DNA of 4,367 nt from a virus (Duplodnaviria; Heunggongvirae; Uroviricota; Caudoviricetes), in IMG/VR virus record IMGVR_UViG_2663763286_000026; one strand, 5' to 3'. The position numbers and the translations under genes were made by a program. Every line of letters starts with the position of its first letter. Position 1 is the first letter of the stretch. The notes under the pieces are model-generated. The model did no database searches. It was not told where the DNA came from and was given only the letters and a program-made list of their open reading frames with translations. Positions 1 through 4,367 of the stretch are shown piece by piece.

Positions 1-1236
1 CTATGATAACCGCGCATTCAACATGGCTATCTGTTCGTCGTTCATGTCATCAATCCACATACCGTAAATTTCATACACCATCTGCGCAGTTTCATGCCCC
101 ATTTGGCTGGCTATAAATGCCGGGTTCGCTCCTGCCGTCAACAGCCAGCAGGCAAAAGTATGCCGCGTATGGTACGGATTACGGCGGCGAATACCAGCAC
201 GTTTTACTGCTGCATTCCACCTTGCCCCCAAACTGCTTACCGAGTAATAAGGTTTTTGTTTTCCGTTACACACCCTGGGCATGAAAACAAAATGCAGTTT
301 TTGCTTTTCGGTTCTGCCGTACTCCCGATGATAAAAGGTGATTTCGCTTTTGCGATGATGCCCGGTCAGTTTGTATTGCTCCTTCAGTGCTTCAAGAGCA
401 GGCTGCAGTAGTGTTACTGTCCGGATCCCGGCATTTGTTTTTGGGGGACCGAACATATCAAGTATCGTCAGGTTTCTTCTGACATTCACTATTCCCTTTT
501 CGAGATCCACATCCTCCCACGCCAGAGCTGCCAGTTCCCCGTGACGAAGTCCTGAGTAAACTGCAAATTTCCACATGTTCTGGCTCTGTCCTTTTTCACT
601 TTCCATTAATGCATTGAATTCTGTTTTAGATAACGGATCAGGCTTTATTCTGTTTCGCTGTAATTTTTTTACTCCTTCAAATGGTTTGGTTGATATAAAT
701 CCCGACTGATACGCAAAACGTAACAGCGAACAGAGCAGGGCGATATAGTTATCAACTGTGCGCACGGTTCTTCCTTTTTTGTTGGATCTTGGATTATCCA
801 GGTAAAGCGTTTCTCCATGCAGCAGTTCATTCCGGTAGTTTAAGATATCGCTATAACGAATATGTGATATCAGGGTACTTTCACAAATTATTATTCTGAG
901 TGTTTTTAATTGTGATTTCGTTTTCTTCATTGTGTTTGTTGTTAACTCTGTCTCTTTAATTTTTGTCCAGATATCACAAAGCTCTCCGAACGTTTTTATG
1001 ACTCTCGTTGTCACCATTTTTGCCCCAGTGCTGGACTGGGGAAAACGTCTTAAATACTCAAATTCACCGGAGTTTATTTCATGAACTATCAGCGCTCTTA
1101 AATTTCCGGCCTTTTTAATATTACTGTTTGTAATCTCCCAGCCTTTTAATGTTTCCCGACATCGTTTTCCTCGAAACATGAACCAGATGCGAATGTATCT
1201 ACCTCTAATCTCGACACCTGTTGGTAATTTAGACAT
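1..1236 (-). CDS. intR: Tyrosine site-specific recombinase (phage integrase), Rac prophage IntR-like, 411 aa
   Basis: Complete 411-codon ORF on minus strand (ATG = revcomp of 1234-1236, stop = revcomp of 1-3). C-terminal region carries tyrosine-recombinase hallmarks (H-T-R-H motif in ...NPYHTRHTFAC..., then ...QMGHETAQMVYEIYG... with the candidate catalytic Tyr). Lies immediately downstream of an excisionase-like gene (xis stop TGA, 1 nt, int ATG). Protein recognised from memory as Rac IntR; not verified by search. Confidence 0.9.
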   Translation of the reverse strand: MSKLPTGVEIRGRYIRIWFMFRGKRCRETLKGWEITNSNIKKAGNLRALIVHEINSGEFEYLRRFPQSSTGAKMVTTRVIKTFGELCDIWTKIKETELTTNTMKKTKSQLKTLRIIICESTLISHIRYSDILNYRNELLHGETLYLDNPRSNKKGRTVRTVDNYIALLCSLLRFAYQSGFISTKPFEGVKKLQRNRIKPDPLSKTEFNALMESEKGQSQNMWKFAVYSGLRHGELAALAWEDVDLEKGIVNVRRNLTILDMFGPPKTNAGIRTVTLLQPALEALKEQYKLTGHHRKSEITFYHREYGRTEKQKLHFVFMPRVCNGKQKPYYSVSSLGARWNAAVKRAGIRRRNPYHTRHTFACWLLTAGANPAFIASQMGHETAQMVYEIYGMWIDDMNDEQIAMLNARLS

Positions 1237-1237
1237 A

Positions 1238-1453
1238 TCATGAGTCTTTGATAAACTGATTTATCTTTGGATAGTTGTACCAGATAATCCCTCGTTTGCT
1301 GTCTGGCTTACCTAAAGGAGATACTCGTTTGAAGTGGAAGCCCTCCACCCAACAGTTCTGGCGGTATGCTTCAATTTGTCTGGCCCCCAGACCAGTGCGA
1401 AGCATCAGGCCGTATTCAACCATCCACTCTTCATTAAAGATTACTTGTGCCAT
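1238..1453 (-). CDS. xisR: Excisionase-like recombination directionality factor (YdaQ/XisR-like), 71 aa
   Basis: [19 protein letters not shown]...[11 protein letters not shown] at revcomp 1451-1453 is preceded by GAGGTGATGCG (SD-like AGAGGTG, about 6-nt spacer). The 79-aa form in the ORF track begins at a TTG without SD. Position directly upstream of and 1 nt from the integrase start is typical of xis-int pairs. Confidence 0.75.
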
Positions 1454-1504
1454 CGCATCACCTCTGGCAGGCGCCAATGTTAGACTGAAATTGACGCCCG
1501 ATGT

Positions 1505-1520
1505 TGATTATTAATAATCA
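1505..1520. promoter_or_regulatory. 16-bp perfect palindrome TGATTATTAATAATCA in the xis upstream intergenic region; candidate operator or promoter element
   Basis: Read directly: 1505-1520 is its own reverse complement. It sits 52-67 nt upstream of the xis ATG in the only sizeable intergenic gap of the operon (1454-1552). It contains AATAAT (-10-like) on both strands; a -35-like TTGACG at 1491-1496 lies 16 nt upstream on the plus strand. Confidence 0.35.
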
Positions 1521-1552
1521 GCTATGAAGTTTTAATTTGAATACAATGCAAT

Positions 1553-1741
1553 TCACGAGGACTGAAGTTTCTCGCAATTAAAATTTATCAGTTTTACTTT
1601 CTGCTCTCTGGAAACGCCTGCTTCTTTTTTACCTGAGAGCATTTTTTCGCATTCTGATTTCGTTAGTTTAGATTTTGAATATCTTGTCCAGTTAGTAGGA
1701 GTGCCACCTTCCTTTTCAATAGTGGCGGTAATTTTATACAT
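1553..1741 (-). CDS. ydaC: Small Rac-prophage protein, YdaC-like; 62 aa from the SD-supported ATG (longer 86-aa form possible)
   Basis: ORF ending at stop revcomp 1553-1555. ATG at revcomp 1739-1741 is preceded by AACGGAGGTGTTC (strong SD GGAGGTG, 5-nt spacer). This ATG overlaps the last codons of ralR (ATGTATAA), suggesting translational coupling. The upstream ATG at 1813 has no SD. Identity as ydaC is from memory of Rac gene order and sequence; start codon uncertain. Confidence 0.6.
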   Translation of the reverse strand: MYKITATIEKEGGTPTNWTRYSKSKLTKSECEKMLSGKKEAGVSREQKVKLINFNCEKLQSS

Positions 1742-1928
1742 GAACACCTCCGTTATTATTTCCAGTGGTTCGTTTATTCCATCTTTCGAGTGCTTCTTTT
1801 TCACTTCCACCATAACCGGTTCGGGATTCGCATCCGTTACACTTCGCTCGGTAATATCCTGAAATGACTTTCACCGTTACTGATGGACAACCACAAAATG
1901 GACATGGTTTAACATTGTCATATCTCAT
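1734..1928 (-). CDS. ralR: Restriction-alleviation protein Lar / RalR (also described as a type I toxin with DNase activity), 64 aa
   Basis: ORF MRYDNVKPCPFCGCPSVTVKVISGYYRAKCNGCESRTGYGGSEKEALERWNKRTTGNNNGGVHV, with Cys cluster C9/C12/C14 ... C30/C33 (zinc-ribbon-like). Recognised from memory as K-12 Lar/RalR. Start taken as the ATG at revcomp 1926-1928 (64 aa); the preceding sequence GAGAAAAATT is only a weak SD. Located between recT and ydaC as in Rac. Confidence 0.75.
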   Translation of the reverse strand: MRYDNVKPCPFCGCPSVTVKVISGYYRAKCNGCESRTGYGGSEKEALERWNKRTTGNNNGGVHV

Positions 1929-1956
1929 AATTTTTCTCATAAAAAATATTTCAAGT

Positions 1957-1977
1957 TGGCGGTGCATTACACCGCCA
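1957..1977 (-). other. Perfect 8-bp stem / 5-nt loop hairpin in the recT-ralR intergenic spacer
   Basis: 1957-1964 TGGCGGTG pairs with 1970-1977 CACCGCCA; loop CATTA. On the minus-strand transcript it lies 8 nt after the recT stop. A U6 run follows only about 10 nt after the stem, so it does not look like a canonical intrinsic terminator. Confidence 0.3.
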
Positions 1978-1984
1978 GGCTGAA

Positions 1985-2794
1985 TTATTCCTCTGAATTA
2001 TCGATTACACTGTATTCCCCGGTTAATACAGAGGAATCTGCAGGATCGATTGTCAGTGGTTCCTTTTCATCCATTGATACTGCACGCTGGATCTCAATTG
2101 ATACGGGCAGATATTTGAACAGGCGACGAATAGCCGTTTTCTTTGCCATTTCTTCCCAGTGAGTTACCCACGGCCCGTTATTACCAGCTTTACTCAGGCT
2201 GCGCACCAGCTCAATCTGTTTGCGCGTCATAACTTCAAACTGAGTACCTCCGTCTTTCAGTCTTGCGACAGCATAGACGTGGGTAACCGGGGCATCTTCG
2301 TTTTCTCCCGGGCGGTGTATTAACTTTTCATCAAGGCCAAATTCGAAGCTAAACTCGTCACCTTCACGGACAACACGGGCTGACAGGCTGGCGATTTGAC
2401 CAGAACGGCGAGCCAGATCAATCATGCCGCGATAGCCAATGATTAGCTGAACGTTCTTTTTACCGCTCTTTTCGTTTTTATTACCAAAAGGCAGTAAATA
2501 TGCATGACCGAGGGCGCTACCTGGCTCAAGTCCGAGCTGTGAACACTGTACGATCGCACTGACAAAACTCATAGTGTCACAGTTTCCTAACGCCGGAACT
2601 TTACGAATTTCTGTGGTGGCGATACGGATCATACGTTCAGCCGTCATATGGCGTGGAAGAGCTGCTGCCAGTTGCTCTTTCATTGATGGCTGGTTAATAA
2701 AACTAATCACGTCGCTATTTTTAACTGCTGCTGGTGCACGGTTTCCCTGAGTTTTTTGCAGATCGGCTTTTGCGATTGGTGGTTGCTTAGTCAT
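1985..2794 (-). CDS. recT: RecT single-strand annealing protein (recombinase), 269 aa
   Basis: [32 protein letters not shown]...VIDNSEE, recognised from memory as RecT. ATG at revcomp 2792-2794 is preceded by GCTAAGGAATATGCAA (SD AAGGA, about 7-nt spacer). The start overlaps the recE stop by 8 nt (ATGACTAA). The 288-aa form in the ORF track is an upstream in-frame extension without SD. Confidence 0.92.
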
Positions 2795-4240
2795 TTGCAT
2801 ATTCCTTAGCCCAGCGGGGCAGTGATAATGTCTTAATAGCTGGCCATTCATCGGTATTCAGGCAGTCAGACAGGGTTCGCAGATTGCGGTGATATTCCTG
2901 TTGACCTGCCAGTTTTGCTTCTTCGCCCATCATGAAAATTTCAACCGGATAACGTCCGCATTCAATAGTTGTGCTGGCAACCAGAAAAACGAAAGTTGGC
3001 TGCACTCCAAACTGTGCTTCATAACCGTCACTGTAGAATGCATCCTGAACGTGATAGCGGTAGTCGTAATAAGCGGTTTTGAATCGTTGAATATCCGCCG
3101 TAGTTTTCACGTCCATGATCCAGTGAAATTCAGGGATAATTTTGTCCGGACGGCACCGACACAAAATTCCTGTTTCAGGATCTTCCCAGTAAATTGATGA
3201 TTCAGCGTGTCCGGCGCTTTCAACAAGCCATTGCCCCAGCGGCAAAGCCATAACGCTTTGATACATGAGTTCAATTTTCCGGCCTTCTTCCGCAGTGATA
3301 ACTGTTTTTCCTGTGCTTGCGCATTCCATCAGAAACGCTTTCTCTTCTTCTTTTCCGGCGTTTGTACGGCGGTTAAATTCAGGTGCTACGATAAAGCGGT
3401 TACTGAATTCTTCCGGTTCAAGTACCCGGCAGTGGAAAGCGGTTCCTAAATCGAGCGTTTTTGTCTTTGTGGTGTCAACGGGGGCATTTTTACGCCACAA
3501 ATATAGTGCCGGAGTATCAGCAATGTCATCGAGCTGAGACTTACTGACACCGGGACCCGCGTGGTAATTCTCATTCGAAATTCCGTAATAAATACCTGGC
3601 TCTATGTCTTCTACGATTACGGGATCTGCGACTTCGCCAGTTTCATCACTGCAATCGCGATGCGGATCGCTGCCAGCATTCTCATTGTGCGGATGTTCAG
3701 CGCCTTCCATTTCCTCCGGATCATTTTCCTTAGCTTCAACCTGACTCTCTTCATCGAATGTTTCCTGGTATGTTGCGTCGCCCATCACCGCACCACAGTC
3801 AGGGCAGTTATCCCCGCCAGTCTGGCCGCAGGCATTGCAGGCTATTTCCGGTTCCTGTTGCACTACTGGCTCAGGTTGATTCATATCCGGGCTGGTTTTT
3901 TCCGTTTCTGGCTGGTTCTGGTACACACAATCGCGAGTCTGGATCCCCTTTACCCATTTCGGATCGTTCGGGTCGCTAATTCCGTCAACAAATTCACCAC
4001 GTGATGCAGCAAGCAATTTATCGGCATCGACAGGATCTTTTGATGGAATGTTTTTCCGGGCTTCATGGAGTTCTGCCCGCAGTTCCTGATATTTCGCATC
4101 AATAGAATTTACCTGTGACTGAGCATCCAGCGGCTGCGTGTCCTGATGATGTTCAGTTGCGTCCGGTTCCATTGTTTCAGCCTCTCCCTGTTCAACTGCC
4201 GTTGTTCCAGATGGTTGCGGTTTTTCTTCATCATCCTGTT
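2787..4240 (-). CDS. recE: recE (exodeoxyribonuclease VIII) 3' portion, about 484 codons, 5'-truncated by an IS insertion; gene fragment, possibly pseudogene
   Basis: Translation from ...[26 protein letters not shown]... to ...[13 protein letters not shown] matches RecE central and C-terminal regions from memory (full-length RecE is 866 aa). The 500-codon ORF in the track begins at an ATG (revcomp 4287-4289) that lies inside IS-derived sequence and has no SD, so the native 5' end is absent. Stop at revcomp 2787-2789. Confidence 0.8.
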
Positions 4241-4255
4241 TGAGGTAGCCTGAGT

Positions 4256-4284
4256 TTAACGGACACTCCTTCCTGAAATAGAAT
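4256..4284 (+). promoter_or_regulatory. Candidate inward-reading transposase promoter in the IS left end (-35 TTAACG 4256-4261, 17-nt spacer, -10 TAGAAT 4279-4284)
   Basis: Hexamers read directly from the sequence; position upstream of the orfA SD and ATG is consistent with IS3-family organisation. Not experimentally supported. Confidence 0.25.
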
Positions 4285-4304
4285 GGCATCAGAAGGAGCT
4301 AATA

Positions 4305-4367
4305 ATGAGCAGAAAAACCCAACGTTACTCTAAAGAGTTCAAAGCCGAAGCTGTCAGAACGGTTCTT
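4305..4367 (+). CDS. IS3-family transposase OrfA (helix-turn-helix N-terminus), first 21 codons only; truncated by the window edge
   Basis: ATG at 4305-4307 preceded by GAAGGAG with a 6-nt spacer. Translation MSRKTQRYSKEFKAEAVRTVL is open to the end of the window. It is absent from the ORF track only because it runs off the window. Confidence 0.65.
   Translation, partial: MSRKTQRYSKEFKAEAVRTVL

What the first reader, a model, noticed from the sequence alone, without database searches (positions are those of the whole stretch)
1553..1984. ralR(lar)-ydaC module: anti-restriction and type I toxin locus where an antisense sRNA is expected on the plus strand
Lar/RalR is known to alleviate EcoKI-type restriction and has also been described as a DNase toxin controlled by an Hfq-dependent antisense sRNA (RalA) encoded on the opposite strand in this neighbourhood. 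ralR and ydaC are intact and overlap by 8 nt, but I cannot place the sRNA from sequence alone. Plus-strand candidates are weak: the TTGACG/AATAAT pair at 1491-1518 would start a transcript near 1525 running antisense through ydaC toward ralR, and no convincing plus-strand intrinsic terminator is evident between 1690 and 1990. Because the IS insertion alters the upstream operon, the toxin/antitoxin balance may differ from K-12.
Basis: partly seen in the sequence, partly recalled or inferred. Interest (0 to 1): 0.45.

Follow-up and report, generated by a model that had tools for sequence, protein, structure and literature searches.

The report
Known RalR/RalA toxin-antitoxin locus of Rac
This is the already described RalR toxin / RalA small-RNA antitoxin module of the Rac prophage; the "missing" small RNA lies on the plus strand at 1557-1735, identical to the E. 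coli K-12 gene, so the finding is correct but ordinary.

Summary
The window is the left end of the Rac prophage, collinear with E. coli K-12 (18 SNPs) up to an IS600 insertion in recE.

It is a full-length Rfam RalA match (225 bits, threshold 170) and 179/179 identical to K-12 ralA. It lies antisense to ydaC, not to ralR. Its 16-nt seed (1619-1634) and the ralR target (1791-1806) are both unchanged.

K-12 dRNA-seq puts the start at window 1554, seven bases after a TACAAT -10 box.

Beyond the literature:
- ydaC (DUF1187) is clearly under protein-level purifying selection.
- RalA's structure shows no covariation.
- The seed is confined to E. coli Rac-type alleles, with one natural compensatory change, and is deleted in about 2% of carrier genomes.

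Verdict: already known, low interest.

The parts
1557..1735 (+). ralA, the small RNA antitoxin (179 nt). The K-12 dRNA-seq start corresponds to window 1554.
   Evidence: Rfam RF02694 match of 225.1 bits against a gathering score of 170, model positions 1-179. It is 179/179 identical to K-12 b4714. 5' ends come from PMC4041452, PMC7967276 text and its supplement.
1542..1547 (+). Probable -10 box of ralA. It reads TACAAT here and TATAAT in alleles L002, L004, L005 and L014. There is no good -35.
   Evidence: It lies 7 nt upstream of the dRNA-seq start (1554) and 10 nt upstream of the primer-extension end (1557). It is conserved in all 11 alleles aligned. Assigning it as the -10 box is an inference.
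1619..1634 (+). RalA 16-nt seed TGCTTCTTTTTTACCT (RalA nt 63-78). The perfect 11-nt core is 1619-1629.
   Evidence: Position and sequence match the published repeat. The core is invariant or compensated in 10 of 11 alleles.
1791..1806 (-). Target of RalA inside the ralR coding region (mRNA nt 123-138, codons G41-A46).
   Evidence: An 11-nt perfect complement is reached by 1.3-2.7% of shuffles. There is a natural compensatory change in allele L014 and a G.U wobble in L015/L016.
1734..1928 (-). ralR (lar): a 64-aa zinc-ribbon protein of the Lar family, reported as a DNase toxin. It carries A21V relative to K-12.
   Evidence: NCBIfam NF007260 RalR equivalog 163.4 bits (cut-off 113) and TIGR03655 54.9 bits. 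Pfam PF14354 52.8 bits. Translation.
1553..1741 (-). ydaC/rcbA (DUF1187), 62 aa. It is a protein-coding gene that contains ralA entirely on its opposite strand. Its GGAGGTG Shine-Dalgarno sequence lies at 1745-1751.
   Evidence: Pfam PF06688 132 bits. dN/dS is 0-0.09 among E. coli alleles and 0.15-0.2 in the distant comparisons where dS could be estimated (saturated in the rest). Relatives occur without any Lar gene.
1702..1735 (+). Published (predicted) RalA terminator: 6-bp stem UGCCAC/GUGGCG, 14-nt loop, then GUAAUUUU.
   Evidence: It was predicted by folding only, in PMC4041452. The centroid energy is -6.8 kcal/mol, z = -0.29 against shuffles. The terminator scan does not call it. The stem is broken in alleles L015/L016.
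1950..1984 (.). Very stable hairpin between the recT stop and the ralR start (core GGCGGTG/CACCGCC, 1958-1976). On the minus strand it is followed by AUAUUUUUU, so it looks like a terminator.
   Evidence: Energy is -18.7 kcal/mol on the plus strand (z = -4.3) and -20.8 on the minus strand (z = -5.8). The stem is invariant in two allele types whose loops and flanks differ. Its function is not established.
1491..1518 (+). It is present but not supported as the ralA promoter.
   Evidence: The scan hit matches 10 of 12 positions. No start site is reported near 1525. The -35 reads CTGGCG in L004/L005.
4241..4367 (+). Left end of IS600 inserted in recE (after about codon 382 of 866). Its orfA starts at 4305 and reads away from recE.
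   Evidence: Collinearity with K-12 ends at 4241/4242. BLAST places this stretch on annotated IS600 transposase genes.

Best explanation
The interval is the RalR/RalA type I toxin-antitoxin module of the Rac prophage, essentially the K-12 allele.

What is shown here:
- ralR (1734-1928, minus) encodes a 64-aa Lar-family zinc-ribbon protein.
- ralA (1557-1735, plus) lies wholly inside the opposite strand of the downstream gene ydaC/rcbA and is identical to the K-12 gene.
- RalA nt 63-78 (window 1619-1634) can pair with ralR mRNA codons 41-46 (window 1791-1806): 11 contiguous Watson-Crick pairs, then a G.U and two further pairs.
- ydaC is itself a selected protein-coding gene.

What is taken from the literature on the K-12 allele:
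- RalR over-production is toxic and the purified protein cuts DNA.
- RalA neutralises RalR in trans. This needs the 16-nt match and Hfq, and it lowers RalR protein without lowering ralR mRNA.

What is inferred:
- RalA starts at 1554-1557 from a weak promoter with a TACAAT -10 box at 1542-1547 and is made at very low levels.
- Its 3' end at 1735 is only a prediction.
- The IS600 insertion in recE probably cuts ralR off from the Rac early-left promoter, which would lower toxin transcription rather than raise it.
For: - RalA placement: Rfam RalA 225.1 bits, full length, and 179/179 identity to K-12 b4714 at collinear coordinates.
- RalR identity: equivalog NF007260 163.4 bits against a cut-off of 113, and Pfam Lar family.
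- Seed and target are present and unchanged. A perfect 11-nt core is reached by only 1.3-2.7% of shuffles.
- Natural variation at seed position 1 keeps pairing: U-A in most alleles, A-U with both sides changed in L014, U.G in L015/L016. This agrees with the published loss of function of the T63C mutant and the rescue by matched M1 mutations.
- 5' end: K-12 dRNA-seq start 1413553 equals window 1554. Primer extension and exRNA 5' ends (GAGGACTGAAGT) equal 1557.
- Mechanism: RalR protein falls while its mRNA does not.
- Operon context: ralR is assembled with kilR-ydaE-racC-recE-recT.
Against: - RalA's folding energy is no better than shuffles (z = -0.26).
- None of the 48 Rfam pairs shows a compensatory change in 8 alleles. 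Eight variable pairs simply break.
- The terminator is weak, is not called by the scan, and is broken in some alleles.
- No RalA 3' end appears in a genome-wide 3'-end data set.
- The published 5' end was mapped on RNA from an over-expression plasmid.
- The pairing site lies 120 nt inside the coding region, which is unusual for a translational block.
- About 33 of about 1,900 carrier genomes lack the seed through a 12-nt in-frame deletion. The one such allele read here (L017) keeps a RalR identical to K-12.
- Citrobacter-type RalR/DUF1187 pairs have no seed.
- RalR here carries A21V, which has not been tested.
Confidence: 0.88

Rival explanations
1. The plus-strand transcript is mainly, or was originally, a cis-antisense RNA of a real protein gene, ydaC/rcbA (DUF1187). 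On this reading, control of RalR through a short seed is a recent, lineage-restricted and largely dispensable side activity that shows up mostly under over-expression.
For: - ydaC is under strong purifying selection: 7 synonymous against 0 non-synonymous changes versus L002, dN/dS 0-0.09 in E. coli and 0.15-0.2 in the distant comparisons where dS could be estimated (saturated in the rest).
- It has a strong GGAGGTG ribosome-binding site.
- DUF1187 genes occur without any Lar gene in the Klebsiella-like and Symbiopectobacterium loci.
- The RalA covariance model scores only 24-36 bits on those relatives, with many broken pairs.
- No seed exists in the Citrobacter-type Lar+DUF1187 pair: the longest complement is 8 nt, reached by 46% of shuffles.
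- There is no structural covariation in RalA.
- The seed-deleting allele is in frame and persists in about 2% of carrier genomes.
Against: - In the published dual-plasmid experiment, RalA neutralises a ralR construct that lacks ydaC.
- In the published ralR-ralA plasmid, start-codon and nonsense mutations of ydaC did not remove protection.
- Matched seed mutations restore protection.
- A natural compensatory change occurs at seed position 1.
- The two readings do not exclude each other.
Confidence: 0.2
2. One reading: the sRNA starts near 1525 from the TTGACG-16-AATAAT promoter (1491-1518). The 1557 end would then be a processing product or an artefact of the plasmid.
For: - It is the best consensus match on the plus strand (10 of 12).
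- The plasmid used for primer extension carried only window 1532-1928, so this site was absent from it.
Against: - Chromosomal dRNA-seq in K-12 places the primary start at the equivalent of 1554, with nothing listed near 1525.
- Native exRNA fragments begin with GAGGACTGAAGT, which is 1557.
- The -35 is lost (CTGGCG) in L004/L005, where the module sits next to a different integrase and excisionase, while 1503-1556 stays conserved.
Confidence: 0.06
3. The plus-strand transcript does not stop at 1735. It reads through ralR to the strong hairpin at 1950-1984, giving an RNA of about 430 nt that is a true cis-antisense partner of the whole ralR mRNA.
For: - The annotated terminator is weak, at -6.8 kcal/mol (z = -0.29), with a 14-nt loop and only four U residues placed after GUAA. 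The scan does not call it.
- The 1950-1984 hairpin is exceptionally stable on the plus strand (-18.7 kcal/mol, z = -4.3) and is followed by UUAUUCCUCU.
Against: - The authors report strand-specific qRT-PCR fragments consistent with the 179-nt length.
- The seed mutation and rescue data would be hard to explain if there were 195 nt of perfect complementarity.
- The tail after the hairpin is U-poor.
Confidence: 0.1
4. RalR's natural role is restriction alleviation and modification enhancement (Lar), as originally described. On this reading, toxicity is an over-expression effect, and the locus is an anti-restriction gene with an incidental antisense RNA.
For: - RalR belongs to the Lar restriction-alleviation family: PF14354 at 52.8 bits and TIGR03655 at 54.9 bits.
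- It sits in the early-left recombination operon next to recET, like lambda ral.
- Seed-less alleles with a RalR identical to K-12 persist.
- King and Murray 1995 is cited in PMC4041452.
Against: PMC4041452 reports that RalR did not inhibit restriction-modification in their assays. It also reports that purified RalR, but not the K52Q mutant, cleaves DNA.
Confidence: 0.2

Closest known systems
RalR/RalA type I toxin-antitoxin system of E. coli K-12 Rac prophage (Guo et al. 2014, PMC4041452; ralR b1348, ralA b4714, Rfam RF02694)
   Same: - Gene order and coordinates are the same, collinear with NC_000913.3 from 1412000.
- ralA is identical at 179 of 179 nt.
- The 16-nt seed and its target are identical.
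- The -10 box is the same.
- The 8-nt ralR/ydaC overlap is the same.
   Different: - RalR carries A21V.
- YdaC is 62 aa instead of 69 aa. The 1555 SNP restores the stop codon found in most alleles, 2 nt upstream of RalA +1.
- recE is interrupted by IS600 about 2.3 kb upstream of ralR.
Divergent or trans-acting type I systems with short complementarity (TisB/IstR-1, ShoB/OhsC, ZorO/OrzO)
   Same: The antitoxin RNA is encoded next to the toxin gene, not opposite it, and relies on a short imperfect match of 16-21 nt.
   Different: - The RalR toxin is a soluble zinc-ribbon DNase, not a small membrane peptide.
- The pairing site is deep inside the coding region, not in the 5' UTR.
- The antitoxin gene lies entirely antisense to another conserved protein gene.
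Lar / lambda Ral restriction-alleviation proteins (PF14354, TIGR03655)
   Same: RalR matches the Lar family models above threshold and sits at the same early-left position in a lambdoid prophage.
   Different: - Lambda Ral is only about 24% identical (PMC4041452).
- The published K-12 work found DNase toxicity rather than restriction alleviation.

Membership tests
Rfam RF02694 RalA sRNA | Covariance-model score at or above the curated gathering score (170 bits) over the full model | tested here: met
   225.1 bits, E = 7e-55, model positions 1-179 at window 1557-1735 (+). Identical to K-12 b4714.
Rfam RF02694 RalA sRNA | Conserved secondary structure supported by covariation | tested here: not met
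   None of the 48 pairs shows changes on both sides in 8 distinct alleles. Eight variable pairs break and 2 wobble. MFE z = -0.26. The divergence sampled is small, so this is weak evidence against.
Rfam RF02694 RalA sRNA | Own promoter and defined 5' end | tested here: met
   A TACAAT/TATAAT -10 box at 1542-1547 is conserved in 11 alleles. It is correctly spaced for the K-12 dRNA-seq start (window 1554) and the primer-extension and exRNA end at 1557. No good -35 is present. Transcription in this strain was not tested.
Rfam RF02694 RalA sRNA | Rho-independent terminator at the 3' end | tested here: inconclusive
   The published hairpin is present (1702-1727 plus UUUU at 1732-1735). Its energy is only -6.8 kcal/mol (z = -0.29). 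The scan does not call it. It is broken in L015/L016. It was never mapped experimentally.
Type I toxin-antitoxin system | Protein toxin gene of the described family | tested here: met
   NCBIfam NF007260 RalR equivalog 163.4 bits against a cut-off of 113. One substitution (A21V) relative to K-12.
Type I toxin-antitoxin system | RNA antitoxin able to base-pair with the toxin mRNA | tested here: met
   The 16-nt match has an 11-nt perfect core, 1619-1634 against 1791-1806. Chance probability is 0.013-0.027. Natural A-U and U.G variants at position 1 keep pairing.
Type I toxin-antitoxin system | Toxin over-production is toxic and the RNA neutralises it; Hfq dependence | not testable with these tools
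   Shown only for the K-12 allele in PMC4041452. The V21 allele has not been tested.
Lar restriction-alleviation family (PF14354 / TIGR03655) | Profile score above the curated cut-off | tested here: met
   PF14354 52.8 bits (cut-off 28.6). TIGR03655 54.9 bits (cut-off 39.6).
DUF1187 (PF06688) protein, RcbA/YdaC | Profile score above cut-off, and evolutionary signature of a translated gene | tested here: met
   PF06688 132.2 bits. dN/dS is 0-0.09 among E. coli alleles and 0.15-0.2 in the distant comparisons where dS could be estimated (saturated in the rest), with third-position excess. The natural 12-nt deletion is in frame. AF2 model pLDDT 80.
IS600 (IS3 family) | Sequence identity to annotated IS600 copies, with a terminal TG | tested here: met
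   Window 4242-4367 aligns to features annotated as IS3-like element IS600 family transposase in thousands of E. coli records. Collinearity with K-12 recE ends at 4241/4242. Only the left 127 nt lie in the window.

The most novel reading that the evidence does not exclude
YdaC/RcbA (DUF1187) is a real, selected protein and the older partner of the Lar-type protein RalR, for example a protein modulator or inhibitor of its DNase activity. This would explain the reported reduction in double-strand breaks. On this reading the RalA seed is a recent, E. coli-specific and dispensable overlay on the antisense strand of that gene. The locus would then be a three-component sense/antisense module, not a simple type I pair.
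Probability: 0.12. Interest if true: 0.5.

Novelty: already known. Interest (0 to 1): 0.15.

Why it matters
For the finding itself, little: it re-identifies a published and annotated toxin-antitoxin locus and places the sRNA exactly where K-12 has it.

The side results have modest value for annotation and for how this system is described:
- The RalA boundaries in databases rest on a 5' end mapped from a plasmid and a 3' end that was only predicted.
- Natural alleles exist that have lost the seed. The one read here (L017) keeps RalR identical to K-12. This bears on whether the module acts as an addiction system at native expression levels.

Tried and rejected
- Whole-length RNA duplex folding of RalA against ralR mRNA gave unrealistic end-to-end duplexes and was dropped in favour of longest-complement statistics. 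A first version of that script timed out.
- The source strain could not be identified. No complete E. coli genome has the IS600/recE junction. The exact 500-aa fusion ORF is not on record. A 37-nt junction pattern found nothing in the species-representative genomes. The closest 2.6-kb matches (a metagenome bin and Shigella flexneri) still differ by 5-8 bases.
- The supplements of Adams et al. 2021 contain no entry for ralA, rcbA or ralR, so no RalA 3' end was found there. No paper in the library combines RalA with RIL-seq.
- PDB sequence search with RalR gave only spurious zinc-ribbon-like hits.
- The promoter-like site TTGAAA-16-AATTAT (1954-1927, minus) was considered as a ralR promoter. It was rejected because its predicted start falls inside the ORF.

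Full report
**What the window is**

The 4,367-base window is the left end of the Rac prophage. It aligns without gaps to E. coli K-12 MG1655 (NC_000913.3) from position 1412000, with only 18 substitutions up to window 4241. The genes are:
- intR, 1-1236 (-)
- xisR, 1238-1453 (-)
- ydaC/rcbA, 1553-1741 (-)
- ralR, 1734-1928 (-)
- recT, 1985-2794 (-)
- the 3' 1.45 kb of recE, 2787-4241 (-)

From 4241/4242 the sequence is the left end of IS600. About 1,900 of 5,426 complete E. coli genomes carry the ralR-ydaC interval at 90% identity or more, and 19 listed genomes match window 1400-2100 exactly.

**Checking the observation**

- ralR and ydaC are intact and overlap by 8 nt.
- TTGACG-16-AATAAT at 1491-1518 is the only plus-strand promoter-like hit in 1400-2100.
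- The same scan finds no intrinsic terminator.
- An IS interrupts recE upstream.

The interval differs from K-12 at three positions.
- 1555 T>A creates the TGA stop that makes YdaC 62 aa instead of 69 aa. Seven of the ten other alleles I aligned have the A, so the K-12 extension is the minority form.
- 1752 is silent in ralR.
- 1867 gives RalR A21V, at a position that is A, V or D in natural alleles.

**Placing the sRNA**

- Rfam's RalA model (RF02694) matches window 1557-1735 on the plus strand at 225.1 bits, against a gathering score of 170, over all 179 model positions.
- The stretch is 179/179 identical to the annotated K-12 ralA gene, b4714, at the collinear position.
- RalA therefore lies inside the opposite strand of ydaC and overlaps ralR only at its stop codon (1734-1735).
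- The published 16-nt repeat is RalA nt 63-78, window 1619-1634 (TGCTTCTTTTTTACCT).
- Its partner in ralR mRNA is nt 123-138, window 1791-1806, codons G41-A46.
- The duplex has 11 contiguous Watson-Crick pairs, then a G.U, two more pairs, a mismatch and a final pair.

**Promoter and ends**

- A re-analysis of the K-12 dRNA-seq data lists the ralA primary start at 1413553, which is window 1554 (supplement of PMC7967276).
- Primer extension (PMC4041452) and native extracellular RNA fragments beginning GAGGACTGAAGT put the 5' end at 1557.
- A TACAAT hexamer at 1542-1547 sits exactly 7 nt upstream of 1554. It is conserved in all 11 alleles aligned and reads TATAAT in four of them.
- No good -35 is present. 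[quoted passage not shown]
Positions 1503-1556 stay conserved there.

The primer-extension RNA came from a plasmid that carried only window 1532-1928, so that experiment could not have seen a start at 1525. The chromosomal dRNA-seq result is what argues against it.

- The 3' end at 1735 was never mapped. It was inferred from a folded hairpin.
- That hairpin has a 6-bp stem (1702-1707 with 1722-1727) and a 14-nt loop, followed by GUAAUUUU. Its energy is -6.8 kcal/mol (z = -0.29; 76 of 200 shuffles fold as well).
- A genome-wide 3'-end data set has no ralA entry.
- In alleles L015/L016 the stem is broken by a change that is synonymous in ydaC.

**How it most likely works**

The mechanism comes from the K-12 literature, PMC4041452.
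- RalR over-production is toxic, and the purified protein, but not the K52Q mutant, cuts DNA.
- RalA supplied in trans neutralises RalR.
- Single seed mutations (T63C, G64C) weaken protection, and four seed mutations abolish it.
- Matching mutations in ralR restore protection.
- Hfq is required.
- RalR protein falls while ralR mRNA does not.

All the sequence elements this mechanism needs are present and unchanged in the window. The toxicity of the V21 allele, and whether ralA is transcribed in this strain, are inferred and not shown.

**Is the seed more than chance?**

- An 11-nt perfect complement between RalA and the ralR message is reached by 1.8% (coding region only) or 2.7% (with leader) of dinucleotide shuffles, and by 1.3% of codon-order shuffles of ydaC. 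This is suggestive but not strong on its own.
- Natural variation adds support. Allele L014 has U63A in RalA together with the matching A>U in the ralR target.
- L015/L016 have A>G in the target, giving U.G. No allele changes the interior of the core.
- Positions 13 and 16 of the "16-nt" match vary without compensation, so the selected unit is the 11-12-nt core.

**What goes beyond the literature**

1. ydaC behaves as a protein-coding gene.
 - Among E. coli alleles, substitutions are almost all synonymous in its frame: 7 synonymous against 0 non-synonymous, 5 against 2, and 6 against 1, giving dN/dS of 0-0.09.
 - Against relatives of 59-67% amino-acid identity, synonymous sites are saturated while dN is about 0.25.
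 - It has a GGAGGTG ribosome-binding site 5 nt before the ATG.
 - It matches DUF1187 at 132 bits.
 - DUF1187 genes occur without any Lar gene next to a Dam-type methylase (L010-L012), in a Klebsiella-like locus (L006), and in several copies in Symbiopectobacterium.

2. RalA's structure is not supported by evolution or thermodynamics.
 - The MFE z-score is -0.26.
 - No Rfam pair has changes on both sides across 8 alleles, and eight variable pairs simply break.
 - Only 24-36 bits are scored on the antisense strand of diverged DUF1187 genes.

3. The seed is lineage-restricted and can be lost.
 - Citrobacter-type RalR (111 bits to the RalR equivalog) sits beside DUF1187 with no complementarity beyond chance: 8 nt, reached by 46% of shuffles.
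 - About 33 of about 1,900 E. coli genomes carry a 12-nt in-frame deletion that removes the core. In the one such allele read here (L017), RalR is identical to K-12.

**The IS600 insertion**

- In K-12, transcript assembly joins ralR to kilR-ydaE-racC-recE-recT, and joins rcbA to xisR-intR.
- Here IS600 sits after about codon 382 of recE, with its own orfA reading away from recE.
- No outward promoter facing recE is predicted in the IS end.
- The likely effect is a polar block between the Rac early-left promoter and recE'-recT-ralR. That means less toxin message, not more. This is inference only.

**Verdict**

The finding is correct and the element is real, but it is the already described and annotated RalR/RalA locus in nearly its K-12 form. 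Interest is low. The modest added value lies in the evidence that ralA overlaps a genuinely coding gene, and in the weak support for its published 3' end and structure.

Noticed in passing
window 1950-1984 (core 1958-1976): A very stable hairpin lies between the recT stop and the ralR start. Its energy is -18.7 kcal/mol on the plus strand and -20.8 on the minus strand (z = -4.3 and -5.8). On the minus strand it is followed by AUAUUUUUU, so it may terminate recET transcripts before ralR or form the 5' stem of a ralR mRNA. The stem is invariant in two allele types whose loops (CATTA or AGGCTA) and flanks differ.
   Followed up: partly
window 2787-4367: IS600 is inserted in recE after about codon 382 of 866. 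A 500-codon ORF (2787-4289, minus) begins with 16 IS-derived codons fused in frame to the C-terminal part of recE. This exact junction and ORF were found in no complete E. coli genome, species-representative genome or gene catalogue searched.
   Followed up: partly
window 1553-1555; L001 3532-3555: The 69-aa K-12 RcbA is the minority form. Seven of the ten other alleles aligned, like this window, have a TGA at 1553-1555 and encode 62 aa. The SNP lies 2 nt upstream of RalA +1, at +2 of the dRNA-seq start.
   Followed up: yes
L017 (E. coli M8, NZ_CP010191.1) 178-344; equivalent to window 1615-1626: A natural 12-nt in-frame deletion removes the RalA seed core and four YdaC codons. In L017, the one such allele read, RalR stays identical to K-12. 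About 33 complete E. coli genomes from mice, humans and rodents carry the deletion.
   Followed up: partly
L014 (PP818812.1, 'Actinobacillus phage vB_Apl-pPE4') and L020 ('Roseburia' MAG contig): Records attributed to non-enterobacterial hosts carry a Rac-type ralR-ydaC-ralA module at 91-99% identity to E. coli. This probably reflects mis-assignment or contamination of those records. L014 is also the allele with the compensatory seed change.
   Followed up: no
L026-L033 (Symbiopectobacterium genomes): DUF1187 genes are present in several copies per genome, some of them degraded, and none has a Lar gene directly upstream.
   Followed up: no
L015/L016 355-549: In these alleles ralR begins with TTG instead of ATG. 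The RalA terminator stem is broken in the same alleles.
   Followed up: no
window 1454-1556: The xisR-ydaC spacer holds divergent starts. K-12 dRNA-seq lists xisR starts equivalent to window 1468 and 1474 on the minus strand, 86 nt from the ralA start.
   Followed up: no
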